Source of the DNA: Candidatus Dormibacteria bacterium
GTDB taxonomy: Bacteria > Chloroflexota > Dormibacteria > Aeolococcales > Aeolococcaceae
NCBI GenBank assembly: GCA_050734155.1
Contig: JBOHUD010000064.1
Location: 138,181 to 202,180, forward strand
Direction: 5' to 3'
Length of the DNA: 64,000 nucleotides
Under the pieces are notes generated by a model. That model was not told where the DNA came from, did not search any database, and saw only the letters and a program-made list of their open reading frames with translations. Made by a program: the position numbers and the translations under genes. Positions 6,866-56,071 of the stretch are shown here, piece after piece; positions within the stretch are counted from its first letter, which is position 1, and each line of letters starts with the position of its first letter.

Positions 6866-7570
6866 CTACGGCGCAGGGCGCGGGCGCAGCAGCACGATCG
6901 GGGTCTGCTCCTCGCCCTGCCCGAGCGGATTGTCGAGCACCGCCAGGCGCACATCCGCCGCCGGGACGGGAACCCCGCGGCTGGCGCCGAGCACCTCGAC
7001 GTTGATGTTGTTGGCGTCGACGATCACGACCGGCCAGCCGGTGGCGTCCTCGATCGCCTGGGCGTCGCGGGGCGGGTCCTCGGGGCCCAGCATGGCGAAC
7101 TCGTTGAAGGGCCGGACGGTGTGCGGGTTGAATCCGTCGATCTCGGAGACGCGGTGGCCCGCCAGCCGATAGAAGTCTCCGTGCCGTCCCAGCAGCCGGG
7201 TGACCCCGCCGACCGACATGGCCATGGCCATGCGCGCCCAGCCCGCGCGCATGATCGCCACCTGCATCTTGGCGGGATCCGAGAAGCCGACGTCATCCTC
7301 GAGCTTGGTCACCCCCCTGACCAGCAGCCGGGCGAGCAGCCCCGGTCGCACCAGCGAGCGATGAATGACGCGGCCCTGGGTGATGGCCACGAACTTCTCG
7401 GAGAGGACGAGGAAGTCGCCGGGTTGGAAGTGCGGCGCGACGTAGGTCCGCAGCACCTCGACGAGCGGCTCCTTGACGTGGACCAGGTGGGTGCGCACCG
7501 CGGCGCGCTCGTAGGTGCGACCGCCCACCATCCTCGCCTCCTGCCATGCCACCGGCGCGTTCGCGGTCAT
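6866..7570 (-). CDS. CofE-like protein (F420-0:gamma-glutamyl ligase superfamily, PF01996-like), divergent
   Basis: Real start MTANAPVAW at 7570 (ATG), overlapping the asnB stop as ATGA. Motifs GDFLVLSEKFVAITQGR (cf. CofE DVLVVxSTxISKAEGR) and VVIVDANNINVE (cf. VIITDTNGR). The ORF-track ORF is extended upstream artefactually. Confidence 0.55.
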   Translation of the reverse strand: MTANAPVAWQEARMVGGRTYERAAVRTHLVHVKEPLVEVLRTYVAPHFQPGDFLVLSEKFVAITQGRVIHRSLVRPGLLARLLVRGVTKLEDDVGFSDPAKMQVAIMRAGWARMAMAMSVGGVTRLLGRHGDFYRLAGHRVSEIDGFNPHTVRPFNEFAMLGPEDPPRDAQAIEDATGWPVVIVDANNINVEVLGASRGVPVPAADVRLAVLDNPLGQGEEQTPIVLLRPRPAP

Positions 7571-9402
7571 GCGGCCAGCGCGACCGGCCGGTCCATGTAG
7601 CGCTGCATCCACAGCTCGGTGACCATGGTGCGCCAGAAGATCAGGGGGTCCCCCGGCGCCCCGGCCAGCCAGGCGTCGAAGTCCCTGACCAGGCGATCGT
7701 TGTCGTAGATGCCGCGGCCGCGGCACGCCGGCGAGTCGAAGATGGCTCGCATCTCGGGGGCCCGGCCCCGGATCCAGGTGACCTCGGGATTGGTGAAGCC
7801 GATCTTGCTCCGGCGCAGCCGGTTCTTCTCGGGAATGCGTCCCCGCATGGCGCGGCGGTACACGGCCCGGTTCCAGCCGCCATCGATCTTCTGGTCGATG
7901 GGCAGCCGGAAGATGAACTCCACCAGCTCGTGGTCCAGGAAGGGCACGCGAGCCTCGATGGAGAACGCCATCGAGTTCTTGTCCTCATAGCGCAGCAGGT
8001 TGGGCGTCGAGTAGGCGAGCACGTCGTTGGCCAGGCGGGCGTTGAGGTTGCGATCGGGGGTGAAGCTGACCGAGTCGAGGCTCCCGTCCTGGTCGGCCAG
8101 GAATGGCCGCATGCTCAGCAGGCCGCCCTGGCGCGGCAGTCGCGAGCGCATGGCCTCGGCGAAGAAGCCGCGATACAGGTCGAGACCTCTGAGCAGCTCG
8201 CGCGCCCCCGCCAACCAGTGGCGCTGGTCGCGGGCAGAGCTCAGGTAGGCCCTGAAGTAGGGTATGTACCCGGCCAGGAGTTCGTCGCCGCCGTTGCCCG
8301 AGAGCATCACCTTGACGTGCTCGTGGGCGACGCGGTACACGCAGTAGTACGCGTAGGGCGCGGAGGCGATCGTCGGCTCCTCCTGGAACCAGACCCAATC
8401 GGTCATCTCTGTCCAGAACTCGTCGAGGTCGGGGTATGCATAGTGAGGGACACTGTTGGTGCGGGTCTCGACCTCATGGATGTACTCGCTCTCGTCGATG
8501 CTCTGGCCGGGGAAGAGTGCCGAGAAGGTGTGCAGCCTGCCCTCGGTGTGCAGGTCGGCTCCGCGCTGCATGAGGTCGGCCATGGTGCACACCACCCCGC
8601 TGGAGTCGAGCCCTCCCGAGAGCGGCACCCCCACCGGCGCGTCGGAGAGCAGGTGCCGGGCCACCACCTTCTCGAACAGGGCGGCGAACTCGGCCGCGTG
8701 GTCGGCGTCACTGCGCCCGCTCGAGAACTCCAGGTTGATCTCTGGATTCCAGTAGCGCTCGATGCTGCTGATGCCGTCGGGACCGATCGTCATGGTGTGG
8801 GCGGGGCGGAGGCGCTTGATGCCGGCGAAGAAGGTGTCCTCAGTGGCGTCGTGGACCCGGAAGAGGAGGAACCGCTGCAGCACCGCCAGGTCCTCGCGGC
8901 GCGGGACGGCCGGGTCCTGCAGGATCGCCTTGATCTCCGAGGCGAAGATGACCCGGCTGCCCAGCTGCGCGTAGTAGAGAGGCTTGATGCCCAGCCGATC
9001 GCGGGCCAGGAACAGCTCGCCTCTGGTGGAGTCCCAGAGCGCAAACGCGAACATGCCGGTGAGGTGGGTGACCACACCATGCCCCCACTCCTCGTAGCCG
9101 CGAAGGATAACCTCGGTATCGGAGTGGTCGGTGGCGAACCGATGCCCCCTGGCCTCCAGCTCGACCTTCAACTCGGGGGCGTTGTAGATCTCGCCATTGC
9201 AGATCAGGGAGAGCCGGTGGTCGTCGGTGCGCAGCGGCTGGTTGCCGCCGTCGATGTCGACGATGGCGAGCCGCCGCACGCCCATGGAGACGCGCTCGTT
9301 GACCTCGACGCCGAATCCGTCGGGTCCGCGATGGACAATGGAGTCGAGCATCCGAGTGAGCAGCTCCCGATCGACACCGGTGAAGCCGGCGATGCCGCAC
9401 AT
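7567..9402 (-). CDS. asnB: Asparagine synthetase (glutamine-hydrolysing), AsnB family
   Basis: 611 aa. N-terminal class-II glutamine amidotransferase Cys2 (MCGIAGF), PP-loop synthetase domain (SGGLDSS). Confidence 0.88.
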   Translation of the reverse strand: MCGIAGFTGVDRELLTRMLDSIVHRGPDGFGVEVNERVSMGVRRLAIVDIDGGNQPLRTDDHRLSLICNGEIYNAPELKVELEARGHRFATDHSDTEVILRGYEEWGHGVVTHLTGMFAFALWDSTRGELFLARDRLGIKPLYYAQLGSRVIFASEIKAILQDPAVPRREDLAVLQRFLLFRVHDATEDTFFAGIKRLRPAHTMTIGPDGISSIERYWNPEINLEFSSGRSDADHAAEFAALFEKVVARHLLSDAPVGVPLSGGLDSSGVVCTMADLMQRGADLHTEGRLHTFSALFPGQSIDESEYIHEVETRTNSVPHYAYPDLDEFWTEMTDWVWFQEEPTIASAPYAYYCVYRVAHEHVKVMLSGNGGDELLAGYIPYFRAYLSSARDQRHWLAGARELLRGLDLYRGFFAEAMRSRLPRQGGLLSMRPFLADQDGSLDSVSFTPDRNLNARLANDVLAYSTPNLLRYEDKNSMAFSIEARVPFLDHELVEFIFRLPIDQKIDGGWNRAVYRRAMRGRIPEKNRLRRSKIGFTNPEVTWIRGRAPEMRAIFDSPACRGRGIYDNDRLVRDFDAWLAGAPGDPLIFWRTMVTELWMQRYMDRPVALAA

Positions 9403-9460
9403 GCGCTGGTCAGTCTAGGCGGGGCAGACGGGCTCGCGGCCCACCGGCGGCGCCGCCCGA

Positions 9461-11179
9461 CTAGAAGTCGAGGTCGTCGTCCATCCCCATGCCACCCATG
9501 CCACCCATGCCACCCATGCCGCCCATGCCACCCATGCCGCCGCCCATGCCACCCATGCCGCCGCCGTGGGCGTGGCCGTGGCCGGCAGCAGCCTCATCGT
9601 CCTCGGGCTCGGGGGCGTCGGCGATGAGCGCCTCGGTGGTGAGCATCATGGCGGCGATCGAGGCCGCGTGGGAGAGCGCGCTGACCACCACCTTGGTGGG
9701 ATCGATGACGCCGCGCTGGACGAGGTTGGCGTAGTCGCCGGTGCGCGCGTCGAAACCCTCGTCACCGCTCGCCTGGGCCACGCGATTGGCCACGGTGGGG
9801 CCGTCGTGGCCGCCGTTCTGGGCGATGATCCGCAGCGGCTCCTGGAGTGCTCTGCGCACGATCCGCGCCCCGGTGGCGGCGTCGTCGTGGAGCTCGAGGT
9901 CGTCGATGGAGTCCACGGCGCGCAGGAGCGCGACCCCGCCCCCGGCCACGTAGCCGTCCTCGAGCGCGGCCCGGACGGCGGCGAGGGCGTCCTCGACGCG
10001 GGACTTGCGCTCCTTCATCTCCACCTCGGTGGCGGCGCCGACCTTGACCACGGCGATGCCGCCGACCAGCCGCGCCAGCCGCTCCTGGAGCTTCTCGCGA
10101 TCCCATTCCGACTCGGTCTCCTCGATCTCGCGGCGGAGATCCTCGGCGCGCGCGTCGACGGCGCCGCGGTCGCCACCGCCCCTGAGGATGGTTGTGTCCT
10201 CTTTGGTGATCACGATCCGCTCGGCGCTGCCCAGCTGGTCGAGACGCACCCCATCGAGGCGCAGCCCAACCTTCTCGCTGATCAGCGTGGCACCGGTCAG
10301 CACCGCGATGTCGGCAAGGATGGCGGTGCGCCGATCGCCGAATGCGGGCGCCTTGACCGCGACCGCGGTGAAGGAGCCGCGGAGGCGGTTGACGACCAGG
10401 GTTGCCAGCGCCTCCGCCTGCACATCCTCGGCGACGATGAGCAGCGGCCGGCTCGAGCGCACCACCAGCTCGAGGGCGGGAAGCAGGTCGGCGACGGCGG
10501 TGATCTTGGCATCGGTGACCAGAACCGCCGCCTTCTCCAGGATCGCCTCCATCGTCTTCTGGTCGGTCACCAGGTAGGGCGACACGTAGCCGCGATCGAA
10601 CTGCATGCCCTCGACGACCTCGACCTCGGTCTCGATGCCGTTGCCCTCCTCGACGGTCACCACGCCCTCGCGTCCGACGCGCTCGAAGGCCTCGGCGATC
10701 ATGGTCCCGATGACCTCGTCACCCGAGCTGATGGTGGCGACGCGCTCCAGGTCCTCATTGCCGTCGACGGGGTGCGACCGGCTGCGCACCGCGGCCACCA
10801 CCGCCTCGGTGGCGGCGAGCATGCCGCGGCGCAGCTCGTTCGGGGACGCCCCGGCGGCGAGGTTGCGCAGCCCCTCGTTGATGAGCGCGCGGCCGAGGAC
10901 CGCGGCGGTGGTGGTGCCATCGCCGGCGATGTCGTTGGTCTTGACAGCGATCTCCTTGAGAAGCTGCGCACCCATGTTCTCGAAGTGGTCCTTGAACTCC
11001 AGGTCGCGGGCGATGGTGACGCCGTCGTTGCTGATCAGCGGAGACCCGAAGCGCTTGTCGATGACCACGTTGCGCCCTCTCGGGCCGAGCGTCACCGACA
11101 CCGCGTCGGCGACAGAGTCGACGCCGCGATGGAGCGCCTGGCGCGCCTCATTGCTGAAACGAAGTTGCTTGGCAGTCAT
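9461..11179 (-). CDS. groEL: Chaperonin GroEL (Cpn60) with C-terminal GGM repeat tail
   Basis: 572 aa. AAVLGRALINEGL, GDGTTTA, and C-terminus ...GGGMGGMGGGMGGMGGMGGMGGMGGMGMDDDLDF. Confidence 0.97.
   Translation of the reverse strand: MTAKQLRFSNEARQALHRGVDSVADAVSVTLGPRGRNVVIDKRFGSPLISNDGVTIARDLEFKDHFENMGAQLLKEIAVKTNDIAGDGTTTAAVLGRALINEGLRNLAAGASPNELRRGMLAATEAVVAAVRSRSHPVDGNEDLERVATISSGDEVIGTMIAEAFERVGREGVVTVEEGNGIETEVEVVEGMQFDRGYVSPYLVTDQKTMEAILEKAAVLVTDAKITAVADLLPALELVVRSSRPLLIVAEDVQAEALATLVVNRLRGSFTAVAVKAPAFGDRRTAILADIAVLTGATLISEKVGLRLDGVRLDQLGSAERIVITKEDTTILRGGGDRGAVDARAEDLRREIEETESEWDREKLQERLARLVGGIAVVKVGAATEVEMKERKSRVEDALAAVRAALEDGYVAGGGVALLRAVDSIDDLELHDDAATGARIVRRALQEPLRIIAQNGGHDGPTVANRVAQASGDEGFDARTGDYANLVQRGVIDPTKVVVSALSHAASIAAMMLTTEALIADAPEPEDDEAAAGHGHAHGGGMGGMGGGMGGMGGMGGMGGMGGMGMDDDLDF
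9484..9565. repeat. 9-bp tandem coding repeat (catgccacc-like) encoding the GroEL GGM tail
   Basis: Direct reading: ccatgccacccatgccacccatgccacccatgccgcccatgcc...; lies inside the groEL 3' end, not a CRISPR. Confidence 0.9.
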
Positions 11180-11252
11180 GCGGGTTCAGGGGCCTCCGGT
11201 GCAACGACGGACAGGGCTGCTGGCGCCGCCGGCGGCGACGAGTCCTGGGGGA

Positions 11253-11564
11253 TCAGTTGGAGCCGTTGCTGCCGACCACGGCGAGGATGTCCTTCTCACT
11301 GAGGATCAGGTACTCGACCTCGTCGATCTTGACCTCGCTGCCGGCGTACTTGGCGTACATCACTCGATCGCCAACCTTGACGTCGAGCTCGACTCGCTTG
11401 CCGGACTGCTCGTTGTAGCGACCGCTGCCGACCGCCTCGATGGTGCCCTCCTGGGGCTTCTCCTTGGCGGTGTCGGGGAGGACGATGCCGCTCTTGGTCA
11501 TCTCCTCACGCTCCAGGGGCTTGATGACGACGCGATCTGCCAGGGGGCGGAGCTTCAGGGCCAC
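11253..11564 (-). CDS. groES: Co-chaperonin GroES (Cpn10)
   Basis: 103 aa. [49 protein letters not shown]... Confidence 0.97.
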
Positions 11565-11592: not shown

Positions 11593-11619
11593 TTAGCACT
11601 CTCATCTTGAGACTGCTAA
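11593..11619. promoter_or_regulatory. CIRCE inverted repeat (HrcA operator) upstream of groES
   Basis: TTAGCACTC-tcatcttga-GACTGCTAA matches consensus TTAGCACTC-N9-GAGTGCTAA with one mismatch; lies 29-55 nt upstream of the groES start. Confidence 0.85.
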
Positions 11620-11670
11620 CACTGTACCCCAGCGAGTGCCAGCCTGGCAACTCCGCCGGCCCCGCCCGGC

Positions 11671-12510
11671 TCAGGCGCCGACCGCCTTGAGGAAGAGGTC
11701 GGTGCCGTAGCCGGCGAGGAAGCCGCAGAGCAGGCCGAGCATGCCCATGTGGTGGCTGCCGATCTTGCGGTTGACGTGCTGCAGCTCGCCGATCACGTAG
11801 ACGATGGCCCCGGCGGCGAGCCCGAGGAAGAGCACCGACACCGCCTGGCTGGCCAGCGAGGCGCCCACCGCGCGGGTGACGCCGTAGCCGATCAGCGTTC
11901 CCAGGAAGGTGGGCCCGCCGCCCACCACGCCGAGCAGCCCCAGGAACCTCCAGCTGGGCCGCCGGCCGAGCAGCGGCCCGCTGATGCCGAAACCCTCGGT
12001 GATGTTGTGCAGACCGAAACCGATCACCAGCACCAGGAAGAAGCGGTAGGCCCCCGCCGAGGCGGATTGGCCGATGGCGAGGCCCTCCGAGAAGTTGTGC
12101 AGCCCGATCCCGACAGCGATCAGGAGTGCGGTGCGCAGCGGCGCCGGCAGCGGCACTCGTGCCGGGGCCGTCGCCGCGCCGGCGGCCATGGCCCCCGGAC
12201 CGGCGGGCAGCGGGCGGCGCCGGGAGACGCGTTCGAAGCCCACCAGGACGAAGAGGCCAGTCGCCAGCCCGGCGGCGAGGATGAGGCCGAGCCCGGCGCC
12301 CTGTCCCGCCGACCCGCTCAGCCGGCTCTCCACCGCCTCGCTGGCGTTGCGGATGACGTCATAGAAGATGAAGAGGAGGATGCCCACGGACGCCGAGGTG
12401 AGCAGCGACATGACGCGCTGCCCGGGACGCCGCCAGCGGCAGATGGGCAGGCCGAGCAGGATGGTCAGGCCGGCGACCGCTCCCAGGGCGGCGGTCGCTG
12501 CGAAGCTCAT
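11671..12510 (-). CDS. ZIP-family divalent metal cation transporter (ZupT-like)
   Basis: 279 aa, multi-TM. Paired metal-binding motifs LHNFSEGLAIG and LHNITEGFGI typical of ZIP/ZupT. Confidence 0.85.
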   Translation of the reverse strand: MSFAATAALGAVAGLTILLGLPICRWRRPGQRVMSLLTSASVGILLFIFYDVIRNASEAVESRLSGSAGQGAGLGLILAAGLATGLFVLVGFERVSRRRPLPAGPGAMAAGAATAPARVPLPAPLRTALLIAVGIGLHNFSEGLAIGQSASAGAYRFFLVLVIGFGLHNITEGFGISGPLLGRRPSWRFLGLLGVVGGGPTFLGTLIGYGVTRAVGASLASQAVSVLFLGLAAGAIVYVIGELQHVNRKIGSHHMGMLGLLCGFLAGYGTDLFLKAVGA

Positions 12511-12514
12511 GGGC

Positions 12515-12533
12515 TTAGATTAGCCTAACCTAA
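12515..12533. promoter_or_regulatory. DtxR/IdeR-type 19-bp operator (iron box) immediately upstream of the ZIP transporter gene
   Basis: TTAGATTAGCCTAACCTAA vs consensus TTAGGTTAGCCTAACCTAA (18/19). Sits in the 33-nt gap between the regulator stop and the transporter start. Confidence 0.75.
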
Positions 12534-12543
12534 CCCACCCCGA

Positions 12544-13236
12544 TCAGTCCGGAGCCGATTCCACCCAGACGGCGGCCGCCACACCCTCGCTGAGCACCAC
12601 CGGATGCCCCTCGACGACGAGTCGGAGCTGGCCCTCACCCCGGTCGACGACGAGCAGAGACGCCTCCGGCACCACCCCGCCATCGTGGAGCACCGCGAGC
12701 AGGTGGGGAGCGTCGTGCTCGGCCACCTCCGAGATCCGGAAGACTCGCGACCCCACCCCGGTGGGCAGCTCGACCAGGCGCTGCATGGGGCGCCCGGCGG
12801 GCGCGCGCCGCCCCGGGATGACGTTGCCGTGCGGACAGGTGGACGGCCGCCCCAGGTGCTCGTCGAGCCGTTCCAGGACCACGTCGGACACGCCGTGCGA
12901 GAGGGCGGCCGCCTCGCGGTCGGCGGTCGCCCAGTCGAGCCCGAGGACGTCGGTCAGCCAGCGTTCGATGAGCCGGTGGCGGCGCACCACGGCGGCGGCG
13001 GCCACCCGCCCGGCGTCGGACAGGTGGACGCTGCGATCCTCGGCCACGGTCACCCAGCCGTCGCGGGCCAGGCGCTGCAGGCTGACCGTCACCGTGGGGG
13101 CGCTCACCCCCAGCCACTCGGCGATCCGTCCCGGGCGGGGCACGTCGCCCTCGTGCTCGATGTAGTAGATGGTCTCCAGGTAGCGGTCGGCCACCTCGGA
13201 CCGGGCGCCGGTCACAGCGGTCTGGCTCATCGCCAC
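12544..13236 (-). CDS. DtxR/IdeR/MntR-family metal-dependent transcriptional regulator with C-terminal SH3-like/FeoA domain
   Basis: 230 aa. N-terminal wHTH (YLETIYYIEHEG..RIAEWLGVSAPTVTVSLQRL), metal-site residues, dimerisation helix, SH3-like C-terminal domain. Confidence 0.88.
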   Translation of the reverse strand: MAMSQTAVTGARSEVADRYLETIYYIEHEGDVPRPGRIAEWLGVSAPTVTVSLQRLARDGWVTVAEDRSVHLSDAGRVAAAAVVRRHRLIERWLTDVLGLDWATADREAAALSHGVSDVVLERLDEHLGRPSTCPHGNVIPGRRAPAGRPMQRLVELPTGVGSRVFRISEVAEHDAPHLLAVLHDGGVVPEASLLVVDRGEGQLRLVVEGHPVVLSEGVAAAVWVESAPD

Positions 13237-13264
13237 GATGGTAGCCGCGCTCGGCTCCGGCCCC

Positions 13265-14281
13265 TCAGGCGTACGCGTCGAGAACGGGATCGACGGCGAT
13301 GCCGAGGGTGTCCGGTCCGTGGACCCGCAGCCGGTGCCAGCCGGCGGCCCCGATCATGACCGCGTTGTCGGTGCACAGCGGCAGCGGCGGGATGCTGACC
13401 GCGAGGCCGGAGAGCCGCTGCCGCACCGCAGTGCGAAGCGCCTGGTTGGCGGCCACGCCGCCGACCACCGCGATCCGTTCGGCGCCCACCCGGTCCGCGG
13501 TTGTGGTCAGGATGTGCAGCAACTGGTCGACCACGGCGCTCTGGAACGAGGCGGCGAGGTCGGCGACCACGGTGGCATCGCGGGGGGTGCCGTCGTGGCT
13601 CAACCGCTCGACGCCGAGGTCGCGGACGGTGTAGCGCAGCGCGGTCTTGAGACCGCTGAAGGAGAGCGCTCCCTCCAGCCTGGTGCGCGGCAGCGCAAAC
13701 CTGCCGGGGTCGCCTCCCGCCGCGGCACGCTCCACCGCCGGCCCCCCCGGGTAGCCGAGACCGAGCAGGCGTGCCGCCTTGTCGAACGCCTCGCCAGCGG
13801 CGTCGTCACGCGTCGACGCCAACCGGCGCGCGTCGCCATGTCCGCGCAGCTCCACCACCTCGCTGTGCCCCCCGCTCACCACCAGCGCCAGGTACGGCGG
13901 CTCCAGCTCGAGGTCGCTCACCCAGGCGCTGTACACGTGACCGGCCATGTGCGACACGCCCACGATCGGCAGCCCGCGCGCCACCGCGGCAGCCTGCGCG
14001 TAGAGCACCCCCACGAGCAGGCACCCGGCCAGCCCCGGGCCGCGGGTCACCGCCACGGCGTCGATGGCGTCCCAGCCGCCGTCCAGCCCGCCCAGCGCCT
14101 CCTCCACCACCGGGCCGATGGCCTCCAGGTGGGCGCGGGCGGCCAGGTCGGGAACCACCCCGCCGTGGGGCGCGTGGAGATCGATCTGCGAGGCGACGAC
14201 CCCGCTGATCACCTGCCTGCCCTCGCGCAGCACCGCGGCCGCGGTCTCGTCGCACGAGGTCTCCACCGCGAGCAGGTTCAG
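13265..14281 (-). CDS. tsaD: tRNA N6-adenosine threonylcarbamoyltransferase TsaD (Kae1/YgjD)
   Basis: LLAVETSCDETAAAV..., HxxGH metal site (HMAGHV), Kae1/TsaD family. Start ambiguous: CTG 14281 (CTGA overlap with the rimI stop) or GTG 14266. The ORF-track N-terminal extension is an artefact. Confidence 0.88.
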   Translation of the reverse strand: MNLLAVETSCDETAAAVLREGRQVISGVVASQIDLHAPHGGVVPDLAARAHLEAIGPVVEEALGGLDGGWDAIDAVAVTRGPGLAGCLLVGVLYAQAAAVARGLPIVGVSHMAGHVYSAWVSDLELEPPYLALVVSGGHSEVVELRGHGDARRLASTRDDAAGEAFDKAARLLGLGYPGGPAVERAAAGGDPGRFALPRTRLEGALSFSGLKTALRYTVRDLGVERLSHDGTPRDATVVADLAASFQSAVVDQLLHILTTTADRVGAERIAVVGGVAANQALRTAVRQRLSGLAVSIPPLPLCTDNAVMIGAAGWHRLRVHGPDTLGIAVDPVLDAYA

Positions 14282-15467: not shown

Positions 15468-15958
15468 CGCGCCGTCACGCGCTCCTGCAGTGCGCTCCAC
15501 GCCGCGGCGATGTGCGCGGGCGCCGGCCCGACGAGACGCAGGCTGCGCTGATCGGGGCGGGCGTCGTCGCCTCCGGCCATCGACACCGTGCAGGGCTGGA
15601 GATGGCGGAGATCGGCGTACCCGCCCCACTCCAGGACCGCGGCGCCGTCGAGAAGAAGGGTGTCGAGGTCGAGCACCTCGACGGATGCCCCCGGGCCCAG
15701 ACGGTAGAGGTCGAGATGGTGCACGGTGAGGCGCGCGCCGCGGTGCGGCTGGTGGAGGACGAACGTGGGGCTGCGCACGGCGGCGGCGTCGCCGCCCGCC
15801 CCCTCGACGATGCCGCGCACCAGGCACGTCTTGCCGGCGCCGAGCGGACCGTCGAGCACCAGCACGTCCCCGCGCCGGAGAACGGCACCGAGCGCGGCGC
15901 CGTACATCTCGGTGGTGGCCGGTGCGTGGCTGTGCAGCACCGCGCTGTCCGTGCTCAC
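15464..15958 (-). CDS. tsaE: tRNA t6A biosynthesis ATPase TsaE (YjeE)
   Basis: GDVLVLDGPLGAGKTCLVRGIV Walker A, ~160 aa. GTG start at 15958 overlaps the thiL stop (GTGA); alternative ATG at 15907. Confidence 0.85.
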   Translation of the reverse strand: MSTDSAVLHSHAPATTEMYGAALGAVLRRGDVLVLDGPLGAGKTCLVRGIVEGAGGDAAAVRSPTFVLHQPHRGARLTVHHLDLYRLGPGASVEVLDLDTLLLDGAAVLEWGGYADLRHLQPCTVSMAGGDDARPDQRSLRLVGPAPAHIAAAWSALQERVTAR

Positions 15959-17001
15959 CGGTAGTGCTGCGCCGCGGTGGAGGGCAGGGTCATCTCCATG
16001 CCCGCGCGATGCTCCAGGAGTCGCACTCCCGTGCCCGCCCGGAGCACGCCCGCCTGGCGCAGGGGCGCCAGGTGGGGCGGCCATTCCGAGAGCAGGCGGC
16101 CGGCATCCGCAGCTGTCACCGCGGCCACGAGCTCGAAGTCCTCGCCGCCGCCGAGCGCAAGTTCGAGCCACCCTCGACCAAAACGGCCGGCCAGCTGGGT
16201 GTCCACGGGGAGGCTGTCGGCCCAGAGCTCGATCGCACAGCCGCAGGCGCGCGCCGTGCGGGCGGCGTCGAGAAGCAGCCCGTCGCTGATGTCGCCCCCG
16301 CAGCGGACACCGGCATCGAGGAGGTGGCGCCCCTCGGCCACGCGCATGGTGGGCTCGAGCTGGGCGGCGATCCACCGCTCCTCGACCGGGGTCGCCGGCG
16401 CCCGGCCGTCTCTCAGCAGGCGCAGACCCGCCGCGGCGCGGCCGAGCACGCCGGTCACCAGCAGCGCGTCGCCAGGCCGGCCCGCGGAGCGGCGCAGCGC
16501 CAGGCCGCAGGGGAGCGTGCCGGTGAGACAGACGTCGAGCACCAGGGGGCCGTCGATGGCGCTGACGTCACCCCCGGCCACCGCGCACCCCGCCGCGGCG
16601 GCCGCCTCGCAGAGGCCACGCTGGATCTCGAGGATGTCCTCGAGGTGCTCCGACCCGCGCGCACAGAGCGTGGCCAGGCAGTGCGTGGGCCGGGCACCCG
16701 TCCCGGCCATGTCGGAGACCGCCACCGCGAACGCCCGTCTGCCCAGCTGCCGCGGGGTGATCCAGCTGCGCCGGAAGTCGACGTCCTCGACCAGGCAGTC
16801 GATGCTGACCGCCAGGTCGCTGCCCTGGGGGGCAGCCCAGACGGCGGCATCGTCGCCATGCAGCCCGGCGAGCGCCGGACCGCCGGCGGCCGCGGCGATC
16901 TCCACCAGGCTCTCGAGGAGCGCGCTCTCCCCGACCTCAGCGAGCGTCGGTCCGCCGGCGCCGAAACGCCGCCGCGTTGGGGCCGGAGGGGTCTCGGACA
17001 T
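15955..17001 (-). CDS. thiL: Thiamine-monophosphate kinase ThiL
   Basis: 348 aa AIR-synthase-related fold. GDDAAVW...DLAVSIDCLVEDVDF, AVSDMAGTGARP. Confidence 0.88.
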   Translation of the reverse strand: MSETPPAPTRRRFGAGGPTLAEVGESALLESLVEIAAAAGGPALAGLHGDDAAVWAAPQGSDLAVSIDCLVEDVDFRRSWITPRQLGRRAFAVAVSDMAGTGARPTHCLATLCARGSEHLEDILEIQRGLCEAAAAAGCAVAGGDVSAIDGPLVLDVCLTGTLPCGLALRRSAGRPGDALLVTGVLGRAAAGLRLLRDGRAPATPVEERWIAAQLEPTMRVAEGRHLLDAGVRCGGDISDGLLLDAARTARACGCAIELWADSLPVDTQLAGRFGRGWLELALGGGEDFELVAAVTAADAGRLLSEWPPHLAPLRQAGVLRAGTGVRLLEHRAGMEMTLPSTAAQHYR

Positions 17002-24059: not shown

Positions 24060-25073
24060 ATGCGCGTCCGTTCCCTGCCCGCTAGGGTTGGCACCGTGAA
24101 CATCGTCGTCGTCGTCGCCGGCGGGCTCACCGAGATGCTACAGGCTGCACCGCTCATCGCGGCCCTGCCCAGCGTCACCGGTGAGCCCCTGCTCGTGGTC
24201 GGGTCCAGCCGGGCTGCCGAGCTGTCCCCGGGCCTGAGCGGTGCCCACGAGTTCATCTCCGTCCCCGGGCTCGGCTCACGACCGGGGATGCTCAGCCTGG
24301 TCCGTCTGTGGTCGGAGTTGCGCGGGCGCCGCCTGGATGCTGCGGTGATCTGCAGCGAACGGGCGGCGGTGCGCGCGGCCGTGTACGAGGCCGGGGTGCC
24401 GCGCCGGATCGGCTGCGCGGGCGGGCTCAGCGATCGCCTGCTCACCGACCGCGTGCCCCGCGCGCCGGATGGCAACCGCGCTCGCTCCTGGCTGGCACTC
24501 GCCGGTCCGTTCCAGGCGCTCGCCGAGGCGACCGGCCGCGAGTTCCTGCCCAGCGAGGAGGCCACCAGGTCGGCGGAGCAGCTGCTCCTCAGCAACGGGG
24601 CCGGCGACGGACGCCTGCTGGTGGCGATCGCTCCCGGTCAGGGCTTCGCCCACCCCGAGGTGCCCGCCTGGGGAGCGGAGCGCTTCGCCCACCTCGCCAA
24701 CCGCCTGGCCACGCGCCATGGGGCCGGGGTCATCCTGATCGGTGACGAGCGCGACCGTGTCGCCGTGGAGGCGATGCGTCTCGACCTGGCGGCGGACCCG
24801 GTGGACCTCTGCGGCGAGCTCGACCTCGGCACGGTCGCCGCGGTGATGGCGCGCTGCGACCTGGTGATCGGCACCGACACCCCGCTCCTCCATCTCGCCG
24901 CTGCCGTGGGCACCGCCTCGGTGGGGCTGTTCGGCCCCTCCAGCGGCCGCGCCCGGGCACCGGCCGGGGGCGAGCACCGCGTGGTGCAGGCGCTGCCCAA
25001 CGGTCGGGGGCCCGCCAGCCTCGAGCGCATCCGCGTCGACGACGTCCTCGCCGGCATCGAGAGCGTGCTCTAG
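24060..25073 (+). CDS. Glycosyltransferase family 9 (ADP-heptose:LPS heptosyltransferase-like)
   Basis: 337 aa. GT9 C-terminal signature LVIGTDTPLLHLAAAVGTASVGLFGPSS (cf. TDSGPMHLAAALGTP..FGPT). Confidence 0.75.
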   Translation: MRVRSLPARVGTVNIVVVVAGGLTEMLQAAPLIAALPSVTGEPLLVVGSSRAAELSPGLSGAHEFISVPGLGSRPGMLSLVRLWSELRGRRLDAAVICSERAAVRAAVYEAGVPRRIGCAGGLSDRLLTDRVPRAPDGNRARSWLALAGPFQALAEATGREFLPSEEATRSAEQLLLSNGAGDGRLLVAIAPGQGFAHPEVPAWGAERFAHLANRLATRHGAGVILIGDERDRVAVEAMRLDLAADPVDLCGELDLGTVAAVMARCDLVIGTDTPLLHLAAAVGTASVGLFGPSSGRARAPAGGEHRVVQALPNGRGPASLERIRVDDVLAGIESVL

Positions 25074-55441: not shown

Positions 55442-56071
55442 TCAGGCCGCGCCCCGGGGCTCCAGGACGACCACGCGGGAGTCGTCCGAGCCCGTGATCG
55501 CACCGTTGAGGTTGAGCTTGGGAAGCGCCTGGTGGGCGTCCTCGGCCAGCCCCATCTCCCGGGTGAAGGTGTCGACCGGCTCGTACTCGCCGCTGCCGGG
55601 CGACGCCGGGGAGCGATAGCGAACGGGGATCACGATGGGTGGGCTGAGGGCGTTGACCAGCTTGGCCGCCGCCGGCGCGGCCAGGGCGTCGCCGCCGCCG
55701 ACCGGAGCGACGAGGACGTCGATGTGGCCGAGCGCATCGATCTCCTCCTCGGTGAGCTGGCGGTCGAGCCGGCCCACGCTGGCCACGCGGACGTCGTCGA
55801 TCTCCACGCGCATGATGGTGCGGCCGTTGCCGAGGTCGACGCCGCGCACGCTGACGCCGCGAACCTCGAACTCACCCGCCCCACTGACCTCCTGGCTCCG
55901 CCCATCCCGGGGGCGGAGCCGGTCGGCATCGGTGCGGCCCTCGGTGCGCACCACCAGGTCCGGGGTGGCCTTGCCCAGGCCGGGCAGCTGGCCGTCCTGG
56001 GGGTCGATCACCACCTGGGTGTCGCGGCCGCGGAGGCGCACACAGGACAGGCCGAGGTAGGTGATCTCCAT
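55442..56071 (-). CDS. MBL-fold metal-dependent hydrolase (UPF0173/Lactamase_B_3-like)
   Basis: 209 aa. MEITYLGLSCVRLRG... pattern of the UPF0173 family; no HxHxDH, consistent with this subfamily. Confidence 0.6.
   Translation of the reverse strand: MEITYLGLSCVRLRGRDTQVVIDPQDGQLPGLGKATPDLVVRTEGRTDADRLRPRDGRSQEVSGAGEFEVRGVSVRGVDLGNGRTIMRVEIDDVRVASVGRLDRQLTEEEIDALGHIDVLVAPVGGGDALAAPAAAKLVNALSPPIVIPVRYRSPASPGSGEYEPVDTFTREMGLAEDAHQALPKLNLNGAITGSDDSRVVVLEPRGAA

What the first reader, a model, noticed from the sequence alone, without database searches (positions are those of the whole stretch)
11671..13236. A metal-regulated insertion (DtxR-family regulator plus ZIP transporter with near-consensus iron box) splits the conserved tsaD-groES junction
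In Actinobacteria, tsaE-tsaB-rimI-tsaD is normally followed directly by groES-groEL. Here a DtxR/IdeR-like regulator and a ZupT-like ZIP transporter are inserted between them.

The 33-nt gap upstream of the transporter holds TTAGATTAGCCTAACCTAA (12515-12533), an 18/19 match to the IdeR/DtxR operator. This predicts direct metal-dependent repression of the transporter.

The regulator has no intergenic space of its own: the tsaD stop lies 28 nt upstream. It is likely read through from the t6A cluster.
Basis: partly seen in the sequence, partly recalled or inferred. Interest (0 to 1): 0.55.

Follow-up and report, generated by a model that had tools for sequence, protein, structure and literature searches.

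The report
Metal repressor, operator and ZIP importer
Between the tsaD and groES genes of an uncultured soil bacterium (Candidatus Dormibacterota) sits an ordinary kind of metal-uptake switch, a DtxR-family repressor, its 19-bp operator and a ZIP metal importer, that is conserved across the phylum and uses an unusual version of the sensor protein.

Summary
On the minus strand the order is tsaE-tsaB-rimI-tsaD, a DtxR-family regulator (12544-13236), a ZIP transporter (11671-12510), then groES-groEL. The 33-nt gap holds a 19-bp palindrome (12515-12533) one base from the IdeR/DtxR consensus, with none expected by chance.

- The organism is Candidatus Dormibacterota, not an actinobacterium.
- The "insertion" is not local. 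Of 80 related genome loci, 62 have tsaD directly upstream of the regulator and 58 have groES downstream.
- The box is kept in 65 loci. It sits in front of a variable importer: FTR1/EfeU-like, ferric FbpABC-like, or ZIP. This points to iron as the signal.
- The regulator family lacks the IdeR primary metal site (Met10 is Arg; Cys102 and Glu105 are non-ligands). It keeps the ancillary site and a Cys-Pro-His motif.
- Regulator and ZIP each have a TAnnnT -10-like hexamer 6-7 nt before the start codon. The ZIP one lies inside the box. This suggests leaderless transcripts and repression by promoter occlusion, not dependence on read-through from tsaD.

Verdict: a new variant of a known kind, of moderate interest.

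The parts
12544..13230 (-). DtxR-family metalloregulator. It is 228 aa from the ATG at 13230; the ORF can be extended to the GTG at 13236 (230 aa). It has a winged-HTH, a dimerisation/metal domain and an SH3-like C-terminal domain.
   Evidence: Pfam PF01325 and PF02742 pass; FeoA is weak. It aligns to M. tuberculosis IdeR 1fx7 over residues 15-226, E 8.7e-35. It is 100% identical to an NCBI Dormibacteria protein of 228 aa.
13238..13243 (-). -10-like hexamer TACCAT, 7 nt upstream of the regulator ATG (13230). Proposed promoter of a leaderless regulator mRNA.
   Evidence: GCTACCAT is conserved in 12 of 14 ZIP-clade sequences inside an otherwise variable spacer, followed 6-7 nt later by an A/GTG start where the frame is intact. 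TAnnnT lies 5-8 nt before an in-frame start in most other loci. Inference only: no transcript data.
12515..12533 (.). 19-bp IdeR/DtxR-type operator: TTAGGTTAGGCTAATCTAA on the gene strand, made of four nCTAA repeats.
   Evidence: 1 mismatch to consensus with 0 expected by chance. Scores 39.5 of 40.3 bits on the family matrix. Conserved in 65 of 80 related loci.
12517..12522 (-). -10-like hexamer TAATCT inside the operator, at -12 to -7 relative to the A of the ZIP ATG. Proposed promoter of a leaderless ZIP mRNA.
   Evidence: Box plus 4 nt plus ATG/GTG in 13 of 14 ZIP-clade sequences, with no Shine-Dalgarno possible. The same box-plus-4-to-6-nt geometry occurs before FTR1 (L037, L043), FbpA (L024 type) and a distant ZIP (L083). 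Inference only.
11671..12510 (-). ZIP-family metal importer, 279 aa, ZupT-like, with HNFSEG and HNITEG motifs in the two metal-site helices.
   Evidence: Pfam Zip 61.6 bits. ZupT model 68.5 bits, below the 252 cut-off. Aligns to BbZIP 5tsa across the HNLPEG/QDVPEG region. NCBI calls the same 279-aa protein.
13265..14281 (-). tsaD, the last gene of the tsaE-tsaB-rimI-tsaD cluster. Its stop is at 13265-13267; its start is not resolved (CTG at 14281 overlapping the rimI stop, or GTG at 14266).
   Evidence: Pfam TsaD 4.9e-81. Sequence at the rimI/tsaD junction.
11593..11650 (-). groES control region: sigma-70-like promoter TTGCCA-18-TACAGT (11650..11621) followed by a CIRCE-like inverted repeat (11593-11619). 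It bounds the module on the downstream side.
   Evidence: Promoter scan. CIRCE consensus with 1 mismatch and 0 expected by chance.
11253..11564 (-). groES, the downstream neighbour and a separate transcription unit.
   Evidence: Pfam Cpn10 1.1e-35.

Best explanation
This is a self-contained metal-uptake control module of Candidatus Dormibacterota.

Proposed mechanism:
1. A DtxR-family repressor (12544-13230) is made, probably constitutively, from its own leaderless promoter.
2. When its metal co-repressor is abundant (most likely Fe2+), two dimers bind the 19-bp operator at 12515-12533.
3. The operator contains the -10 hexamer (TAATCT, 12522-12517) of a leaderless promoter whose transcript starts at the A of the ZIP ATG (12510). 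Bound repressor therefore blocks RNA polymerase and shuts off the ZIP importer.
4. When the metal is scarce, the repressor falls off and the importer is made.

The sensor differs from IdeR/DtxR. The classical primary site is absent. Sensing must rest on the conserved inter-domain site: His87, Glu91 and Asp106 (dimerisation domain), Cys134 and His136 (linker), and Glu170 and Glu173 (SH3-like domain).

Shown here: gene identities, the operator and its statistics, and its conservation and position across the phylum. Also shown: the replacement of ZIP by iron importers behind the same operator, and the residue patterns in the regulator.

Inferred: actual binding, the identity of the metal, the transcription start sites, and the sensing mechanism.
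For: Cognate pair:
- The box lies at the 3' end of the regulator gene in 59 of 65 box-bearing loci: the regulator stop codon is inside the box in 47, the box starts 1-20 nt after it in 10, and it lies 21-120 nt after it in 2.
- The box stays with regulator homologues found outside the tsaD-groES context (L017, L037, L040, L043, L056, L058, L060, L061).
- 16 of its 19 positions are at least 96% conserved in a 71% G+C genome.
- DNA-contact residues Ser37, Pro39 and Thr40 of IdeR are kept in 119-120 of 120 homologues.
- Gln43 hydrogen-bonds the first C of each CCTAA repeat in IdeR (PMC10317159). Here it is Val in 115 of 120 homologues. Exactly that base (box positions 5, 10 and 15) is the only variable one.

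Metal:
- The same regulator (sensor residues invariant in 120 of 120) and the same box precede three importer types.
- These are an FTR1 permease (Pfam 1.5e-43; NCBIfam EfeU 228.6 bits) in about 40 loci, and a ferric-binding-protein ABC system (HitA/FbpA, E 1.8e-73) in about 14.
- ZIP follows in about 18.

Promoter occlusion and leaderless transcripts:
- Spacing is fixed at box plus 4 nt plus start codon in 13 of 14 ZIP-clade sequences.
- The same geometry recurs with FTR1, FbpA and a distant ZIP.
- TAnnnT 5-8 nt before an in-frame start occurs at 7 coding frames in the window, against 1.25 expected.

Sensor:
- Positions equivalent to IdeR Met10, Cys102 and Glu105 are Arg, Ala and Ser here. 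They are Arg (119 of 120), A/Q/M/T and S/T/A in homologues, and His106 is sometimes Pro.
- His79, Glu83, Asp at position 98, Glu172 and Glu at position 175 are invariant.
- Cys134 and His136 are invariant.
- In MtsR the equivalent His76/Glu80/Cys123/His125/Glu160 site is the primary sensing site (PMC6698748).
Against: - There are no experimental data of any kind for this phylum.
- The metal assignment rests on guilt by replacement. ZIP transporters are broad (Zn, Fe, Mn, Co; PMC9334652), and the only characterised DtxR-family/ZIP pair is manganese-responsive (C. glutamicum MntR-mntT).
- The Met/Cys versus Asp/Glu rule used to tell iron from manganese sensors cannot be applied, because the site is missing.
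- No -35 element is visible and no transcription start is known. A leaderless start is inferred from geometry alone.
- Loci were retrieved through the regulator, so the share of Dormibacterota that lack the module is unknown. At least one lineage has tsaD-ZIP-groES without the regulator (L081).
- I could not check whether these genomes also encode a canonical IdeR or Fur.
Confidence: 0.72

Rival explanations
1. Same architecture, but the regulator is a manganese sensor (MntR-like) and the ZIP is a manganese importer, as in Corynebacterium glutamicum MntR-mntT.
For: The only characterised DtxR-family regulator of a ZIP gene is Mn-responsive (Baumgart and Frunzke 2015, cited in PMC11933003). The conserved site is rich in carboxylates (Glu91, Asp106, Glu170, Glu173). 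The analogous MtsR site 1 senses Mn. JGI names homologues 'Mn-dependent', but that is a generic orthology label.
Against: The same regulator and box control FbpA/HitA-type ferric-binding ABC systems and EfeU/FTR1 permeases in most of the phylum. The Asp/Asn at position 10 and Glu at position 102 that mark MntR proteins (PMC10317159) are absent. NCBIfam MntR models score far below their cut-offs (110 against 350, 75 against 153).
Confidence: 0.17
2. The box is the target of a different, canonical IdeR/DtxR encoded elsewhere in the genome. The adjacent atypical regulator has another target or is metal-independent.
For: The box is a near-perfect actinobacterial IdeR box, while the adjacent protein lacks the primary metal site that IdeR needs. 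In L084 an intact box precedes ZIP with no adjacent regulator.
Against: Box and regulator are physically coupled: the stop codon is inside the box in 47 of 65 loci, including outside the tsaD-groES context. The Gln43-to-Val change matches the relaxed first base of the repeats. The one lineage that lost the adjacent regulator has a decayed box (L081, -0.6 bits).
Confidence: 0.07
3. Zinc-responsive control of a zinc importer, taking the ZupT-like annotation of the ZIP at face value.
For: ZIP proteins are annotated as zinc transporters. A Cys/His-containing site (Cys134, His136, His87) could bind Zn2+.
Against: The alternative cargos behind the same box are iron-specific systems. Per the IdeR review, Zn2+ can occupy IdeR sites in vitro but its role in vivo remains an open question.
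Confidence: 0.03
4. The palindrome acts as an RNA or DNA hairpin (a terminator for the regulator gene) rather than as a protein-binding site.
For: It is a near-perfect inverted repeat placed right after a stop codon.
Against: The RNA fold of the region is no better than shuffles (z = -0.72), and the optimal fold pairs only four bases within the palindrome rather than folding it as a full hairpin. No T-run or terminator-like site was found there. Positions 5 and 15, which would pair, are non-complementary in most loci (G/G in 22 of 65). In some loci the box faces the opposite direction, in front of an inverted operon.
Confidence: 0.01

Closest known systems
IdeR/DtxR iron-dependent repressors and their 19-bp iron boxes (Mycobacterium, Corynebacterium, Streptomyces, Saccharopolyspora)
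   Same: Same three-domain fold family, with full-length alignment to IdeR at E about 1e-35. Same operator, TTAGGTTAGSCTAACCTAA, made of four CCTAA-type repeats. Same DNA-contact residues Ser37, Pro39 and Thr40. Same logic of an operator overlapping the promoter of a metal-uptake gene. The ancillary-site residues are kept.
   Different: The primary site (Met10, Cys102, Glu105) is absent and unconstrained. Gln43 is Val, and the first base of each repeat is free. The protein scores 129 bits against a 290-bit equivalog cut-off. The host is Dormibacterota, not Actinobacteria.
Corynebacterium glutamicum MntR and the ZIP gene mntT (cg1623)
   Same: A DtxR-family repressor directly controlling a ZIP-family importer gene.
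   Different: That regulator is Mn-responsive and, like other MntR proteins, keeps a carboxylate version of the primary site. Here the site is missing and the sister loci carry iron importers. I did not compare the two sequences directly.
Streptococcal MtsR / ScaR / SloR metalloregulators
   Same: In MtsR the main sensing site is His76/Glu80/Cys123/His125/Glu160, at the junction of the dimerisation domain, the linker and the FeoA/SH3-like domain. The window protein has His87/Glu91/Cys134/His136/Glu170 with identical spacing (+4, +43, +2).
   Different: Those proteins sense Mn, bind different operators and oligomerise through their FeoA domains. The correspondence here rests on spacing and motif (RxHRxxE, CPHG), not on an alignment I could obtain.
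Mycobacterium tuberculosis alr-tsaE-tsaB-rimI-tsaD-groES-groEL1 operon
   Same: Same gene order for tsaE-tsaB-rimI-tsaD followed by groES-groEL.
   Different: In Dormibacterota a regulator and an importer lie between tsaD and groES, thiL rather than alr precedes tsaE, and groES has its own promoter plus a CIRCE element.

Membership tests
DtxR family (broad) | N-terminal winged-HTH DNA-binding domain (PF01325) | tested here: met
   55.5 bits against a cut-off of 26.
DtxR family (broad) | Helical dimerisation/metal-binding domain (PF02742) | tested here: met
   87.1 bits against a cut-off of 27.
DtxR family (broad) | C-terminal SH3-like (FeoA) domain | tested here: inconclusive
   Pfam FeoA scores 21.8 bits, just under the 23-bit cut-off. 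However, the IdeR alignment runs to residue 226, and most homologues carry a precomputed PF04023 hit.
IdeR/DtxR iron sensors (equivalog) | Primary metal site: Met10, Cys102, Glu105, His106 | tested here: not met
   Arg18, Ala110, Ser113 and His114 in the window protein. In 120 homologues these positions are Arg 119, A/Q/M/T, S/T/A, and His 116 with Pro 4. The nearest 50%-identity clusters show the same loss.
IdeR/DtxR iron sensors (equivalog) | Ancillary site: His79, Glu83, His98, Glu172, Gln175 | tested here: met
   His87, Glu91, Asp106, Glu170 and Glu173. All five columns are invariant in 120 homologues; two are conservative ligand changes.
IdeR/DtxR iron sensors (equivalog) | Curated whole-protein score (NCBIfam NF053665) | tested here: not met
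   129.4 bits against a cut-off of 290.
IdeR/DtxR iron sensors (equivalog) | 19-bp operator TTAGGTTAGSCTAACCTAA next to a regulated promoter | tested here: met
   18 of 19 match, unique in the window, conserved in 65 of 80 loci.
IdeR/DtxR iron sensors (equivalog) | Base-contacting residues Ser37, Pro39, Thr40, Gln43 | tested here: inconclusive
   Ser, Pro and Thr are kept. Gln43 is Val in 115 of 120 homologues, matched by a relaxed first base in each repeat.
IdeR/DtxR iron sensors (equivalog) | Metal-dependent DNA binding | not testable with these tools
   Needs EMSA or footprinting with purified protein.
MntR (DtxR-type manganese sensors) | Asp/Asn at position 10 and Glu at position 102 of the primary site; curated NCBIfam scores | tested here: not met
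   Arg and Ala at those positions. NF047407 scores 110 against 350, NF008273 75 against 153, NF003025 41 against 138.
MtsR/ScaR/SloR-type site 1 | His-Glu on helix 4, plus Cys-x-His in the linker, plus an acidic residue from the FeoA domain | tested here: inconclusive
   The residues are present with identical spacing and are invariant in the family. No direct alignment to MtsR was obtained.
ZIP family transporters | Pfam PF02535 and the paired H-N-x-x-E-G metal motifs in the two core helices | tested here: met
   61.6 bits against a cut-off of 35.1. HNFSEG and HNITEG align to BbZIP HNLPEG and QDVPEG.
ZupT (equivalog) | Curated whole-protein score NF003243 | tested here: not met
   68.5 bits against a cut-off of 252.
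Leaderless mRNA | -10 hexamer ending about 6-8 nt before the start codon, with no room for a Shine-Dalgarno sequence | tested here: met
   TAATCT at -12 to -7 for ZIP and TACCAT at -13 to -8 for the regulator. The spacing is conserved.
Leaderless mRNA | Transcript 5' end at the start codon | not testable with these tools
   Needs 5' end mapping or metatranscriptome data.

The most novel reading that the evidence does not exclude
The Dormibacterota regulators are a naturally single-site branch of the DtxR family. The IdeR primary site has been replaced by non-ligand residues, with Arg18 sitting where Met10 would bind the metal. All metal sensing would then be done by the inter-domain His/Glu/Asp-Cys/His-Glu/Glu site that docks the SH3-like domain. 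Such a protein would separate the two steps of IdeR activation: ancillary-site docking and dimerisation, and primary-site ordering of the DNA-binding domain. [quoted passage not shown] A secondary novel reading is that the 19-bp box marks a fixed genomic slot, where importer cassettes (ZIP, FTR1, FbpABC in either orientation) are repeatedly exchanged.
Probability: 0.3. Interest if true: 0.6.

Novelty: new variant of a known kind. Interest (0 to 1): 0.4.

Why it matters
- It gives the first concrete, testable model of metal (probably iron) homeostasis control in Candidatus Dormibacterota. This is an abundant, uncultured soil and permafrost phylum.
- It defines a high-information operator motif (TTAGnTTAGsCTAAnCTAA) that can be used to predict the regulon in complete genomes.
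- For DtxR-family specialists, it offers a natural variant that lacks the primary metal site yet keeps an IdeR-type operator. It also shows a matched change between a base-contacting residue (Gln43 to Val) and the operator base it reads.
- It is a clear case of a conserved regulator and operator in front of interchangeable importers.
- It indicates that leaderless transcription is used in this phylum.
- It does not reveal a new kind of regulatory system.

Tried and rejected
- **RNA hairpin or terminator reading of the palindrome.** Rejected: the fold is no better than shuffles, there is no terminator-like site, and positions 5 and 15 are not complementary.
- **Recent horizontal insertion.** No G+C or skew anomaly across 11.6-13.3 kb, and the arrangement is phylum-wide.
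- **Additional boxes.** None elsewhere in the 64-kb window or in about 1.1 Mb of related loci, apart from overlapping registers of the same site. The regulon beyond this locus could not be explored.
- **Autoregulation.** No box upstream of the regulator.
- **Canonical IdeR or MntR assignment.** Rejected on residues and curated cut-offs.
- **Direct alignment to MtsR/ScaR.** A PDB search with a more distant homologue still ranked IdeR structures first and printed no MtsR alignment. The site-1 correspondence therefore rests on spacing only.
- **Literature on Dormibacterota and iron.** Nothing relevant found.
- **Not run.** I did not run structure prediction, because side-chain geometry cannot be inspected with these tools. 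I also did not run a metagenome-wide box scan, because actinobacterial IdeR boxes would dominate the hits.
- **Caveat on reference sequences.** Only the IdeR mapping is backed by a tool alignment.
Full report
**1. What is in the sequence**

All relevant genes are on the minus strand. Read 5' to 3' on that strand, the order is:
- a ThiL-like gene (15955-17001);
- tsaE, a tsaB-like gene, and a GNAT acetyltransferase in the rimI position;
- tsaD (stop at 13265-13267);
- a DtxR-family regulator (12544-13236);
- a ZIP transporter (11671-12510);
- groES (11253-11564) and groEL (9461-11179);
- an asparagine synthase.

The 33-nt spacer between the regulator stop and the ZIP ATG holds the 19-bp palindrome at 12515-12533. 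On the gene strand it reads TTAGGTTAGGCTAATCTAA, one mismatch from the IdeR box. It is the only site with 3 or fewer mismatches in 64 kb, and none appeared in 100 shuffles.

**2. Whose genome**

The regulator and the ZIP are 100% identical to NCBI proteins from a Candidatus Dormibacteria metagenome-assembled genome, on a 209,899-bp contig.

In M. tuberculosis, alr-tsaE-tsaB-rimI-tsaD-groES-groEL1 is one operon (PMC5335608).

**3. Not a local insertion**

A profile of the regulator family retrieved 80 species-level genome loci, nearly all labelled Dormibacterota.
- tsaD lies directly upstream of the regulator in 62 loci.
- groES lies downstream on the same strand in 58.
- Both hold in 56.

Regulator identity to the window protein ranges from 91% down to 57%. 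G+C content and skew across the module match the neighbours. The regulator therefore sits between tsaD and groES as an old, phylum-level feature.

These loci were found through the regulator, so the frequency of genomes lacking it is unknown. One lineage found through ZIP has tsaD-ZIP-groES with no regulator (L081/L082).

**4. The box is conserved and travels with the cargo**

A box with 3 or fewer mismatches is present in 65 of 80 loci. Of all 85 fetched loci, which include five retrieved through ZIP, 61 match TTAGNTTAGNCTAANCTAA exactly.

Sixteen of the 19 positions are at least 96% conserved in a 71% G+C background. Only positions 5, 10 and 15 vary.

Position of the box relative to the regulator gene:
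- the regulator's stop codon (the TAG of TTAG) lies inside the box in 47 of 65 loci;
- the box starts 1-20 nt after the stop in 10;
- it lies 21-120 nt after the stop in 2;
- it is more than 120 nt away in 6.

The gene following the box differs between lineages:

| Cargo after the box | Evidence | Loci (one search count) |
|---|---|---|
| FTR1/EfeU-like permease | Pfam FTR1 1.5e-43; NCBIfam EfeU 228.6 bits | about 40 |
| Ferric-binding-protein ABC system | binding protein matches HitA/FbpA/SfuA structures at E 1.8e-73; permease and ATPase follow | about 14 |
| ZIP | Pfam Zip | about 18 |

The ferric ABC system occurs in direct or inverted orientation. When the operon is inverted, the box sits at its far end, again just before the first gene.

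On a neighbour-joining tree of the regulators, inverted FbpABC loci are interleaved with FTR1 loci. This implies repeated exchange of the cargo.

Two further loci bear on the pairing. In L084 an intact box precedes ZIP although the regulator is not adjacent. In L081, which lost the adjacent regulator, the box has decayed to -0.6 bits.

**5. The regulator is in the DtxR family but is not an IdeR, DtxR or MntR**

It aligns over residues 15-226 with M. tuberculosis IdeR, without gaps through the metal-binding helices (E 8.7e-35). From that alignment:

| IdeR residue | Site | Window protein |
|---|---|---|
| Met10 | primary | Arg18 |
| Cys102 | primary | Ala110 |
| Glu105 | primary | Ser113 |
| His106 | primary | His114 |
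| His79 | ancillary | His87 |
| Glu83 | ancillary | Glu91 |
| His98 | ancillary | Asp106 |
| Glu172 | ancillary | Glu170 |
| Gln175 | ancillary | Glu173 |

In 120 homologues (61-100% identity), the five ancillary columns are invariant. The primary-site columns drift: Arg in 119; A/Q/M/T/V/G; S/T/A; and His in 116 with Pro in 4.

An exhaustive search of 50%-identity representatives shows that the nearest clusters share this pattern. The rest of the family keeps a ligand set of the type E/D/M/N ... C/H/D/E-E-H.

NCBIfam equivalog models for DtxR and MntR are all far below their cut-offs.

The rule that sulfur ligands (Met10, Cys102) favour iron, and Asp/Asn plus Glu favour manganese (PMC10317159), cannot be applied here because the site is gone.

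Cys134 and His136 (the TCPHGN motif) are invariant. Together with His87, Glu91 and Glu170 they reproduce the spacing (+4, +43, +2) of MtsR site 1. That site (His76, Glu80, Cys123, His125, Glu160) is the primary sensing site of MtsR (PMC6698748). I could not obtain a direct alignment to MtsR, so this correspondence is an inference.

**6. Evidence that the adjacent regulator reads the box**

Beyond physical coupling, there is a matched protein-DNA change.
- In IdeR, the only direct base hydrogen bond is from Gln43 to the first C of each CCTAA repeat.
- Ser37 and Pro39 contact the T at repeat position 3.
- Thr40 excludes a T at position 2 (PMC10317159).

In this family Ser, Pro and Thr are kept, but Gln43 is Val in 115 of 120 homologues. 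The first base of each repeat is the only unconserved operator position, while C at position 2 and T at position 3 are 96-99% conserved. A canonical IdeR acting in trans would not predict this.

**7. Promoter architecture (inferred)**

In 13 of 14 ZIP-clade sequences the box is followed by exactly 4 nt and then ATG/GTG-AGC-TTC (one has 5 nt). No Shine-Dalgarno sequence fits.

The right half of the box always contains TAAnCT, a TAnnnT hexamer. In the window it is TAATCT at 12522-12517, which is -12 to -7 relative to the A of the ATG. This is the geometry of a leaderless transcript whose -10 lies inside the operator.

The same box-plus-4-to-6-nt arrangement occurs in front of FTR1 (L037, L043), inverted FbpA (L024 type) and a 64%-identical ZIP (L083). 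In the main FTR1 clade and the direct Fbp clade the start codon is 40-80 nt further on, with purine-rich stretches before it.

The regulator shows the same pattern. GCTACCAT is conserved in 12 of 14 ZIP-clade sequences inside an otherwise variable spacer, followed 6-7 nt later by the start where the frame is intact. Other clades have TAGATT or TAGTGT (built on the tsaD stop codon), TAAGAT or TAGGAT, 6-8 nt before the start.

In the window, TACCAT is at 13243-13238, 7 nt before the ATG at 13230. That supports the ATG rather than the GTG at 13236 as the start, in agreement with the NCBI call.

Across the window, 7 coding frames have TAnnnT 5-8 nt before an in-frame start, against 1.25 expected. 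The organism therefore appears to use leaderless genes.

groES has its own promoter-like site (TTGCCA-18-TACAGT) followed by a CIRCE element with one mismatch.

The module thus looks like two small transcription units set between the t6A cluster and an independently heat-shock-regulated groESL. Read-through from tsaD is possible but not required. A read-through transcript would present the ZIP start with no ribosome-binding site.

**8. Mechanism and confidence**

Most likely, the metal-loaded repressor binds the box as two dimers and occludes the -10 of the ZIP promoter. Metal scarcity relieves this repression.

My estimates for each step:

| Claim | Probability |
|---|---|
| Cognate repressor-operator-importer reading | about 0.85 |
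| Iron as the effector (the same sensor and box govern ferric ABC and EfeU-like systems) | about 0.6 |
| Leaderless promoter details | about 0.6 |
| Single-site sensing model | about 0.3-0.4 |

What the ZIP carries cannot be told from sequence. ZIPs move Zn, Fe, Mn and Co (PMC9334652). The family name itself includes the plant iron-regulated transporter IRT (established knowledge).

**9. Comparison and novelty**

The system works like IdeR/DtxR iron-box repression. A DtxR-family regulator controlling a ZIP gene has a precedent in C. glutamicum MntR-mntT.

It is a member of the DtxR family at domain level. It fails the defining primary-site test for IdeR/DtxR and for MntR.

I rate it a new variant of a known kind. 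The logic is ordinary. The unusual points are:
- the sensor, which lacks the primary site;
- the operator, which doubles as the regulator's stop codon and the cargo's -10;
- the interchangeable cargo;
- the uncultured host phylum.

Interest is moderate.

Noticed in passing
window 11593-11650 (- strand): groES is preceded by a sigma-70-like promoter (TTGCCA-18-TACAGT, 11650..11621) and a CIRCE-type inverted repeat, TTAGCACTC-N9-GACTGCTAA (11593-11619, 1 mismatch, 0 expected by chance). This suggests HrcA-type heat-shock control independent of the upstream genes.
   Followed up: partly
window starts at 24096 (+), 56071 (-), 50569 (-), 34194 (-), 27087 (-): Five further coding frames have a TAnnnT hexamer 5-8 nt upstream of an in-frame start codon, for example gcTACCATgccgcgagATG at 56071. 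Including the regulator and ZIP that makes 7, against 1.25 expected. Leaderless mRNAs seem common in this organism.
   Followed up: partly
L001-L080, junction of regulator and box: In 47 of 65 box-bearing loci the regulator's stop codon (TAG) is part of the operator (TTAG...). The operator therefore overlaps the coding end of its own regulator gene. In the window the stop (TGA) lies 10 nt before the box.
   Followed up: yes
L081/L082 3900-3925; L084 1350-1368: One Dormibacterota lineage has tsaD-ZIP-groES with no regulator in between and only a decayed box (TTAAGGTAGCCTAATTTCG, -0.6 bits). Another has an intact box and a 50-nt leader before ZIP, but with an unrelated gene upstream instead of the regulator.
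   Followed up: partly
L024, L025, L033, L049, L052, L019 (about 7700-11400): A 3.7-kb ferric ABC operon (FbpA plus a fused FbpB-FbpC of 880 aa) is inserted in inverted orientation between the regulator and groES, with the box 5-6 nt before the fbpA start in five of the six (none was found in L019). These loci are interleaved with FTR1-carrying loci on the regulator tree, implying repeated cargo exchange.
   Followed up: partly
L064, L066, L067, L069, L072, L073, L076, L078: Regulator homologues of 57-59% identity, in contigs labelled Chloroflexota or Actinomycetota, have no box and no importer nearby. They still show a TAAGAT, TACCAT or TAGGAT hexamer 6-7 nt before their ATG.
   Followed up: no
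window 14264-14281 (- strand): The tsaD start is unclear. The codon overlapping the rimI stop (TGA, 14280-14278) is CTG, and the next canonical start is a GTG at 14266, just before the conserved ETSCDET motif.
   Followed up: partly
window 9461-9600 (- strand), GroEL C-terminus: The GroEL tail combines a short His-rich stretch (GHGHAHG) with a long run of GGM repeats. On the opposite strand this produces spurious proline- and cysteine-rich ORFs.
   Followed up: no
window 6866-7726 (- strand); L083 8008-8834: Downstream of groEL, the asparagine-synthase gene is followed by, and overlaps, an ORF at 6866-7726 that I did not scan. In L083 the equivalent product is called as one 888-aa protein with GATase, Asn_synthase and F420_ligase domains.
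   Followed up: no
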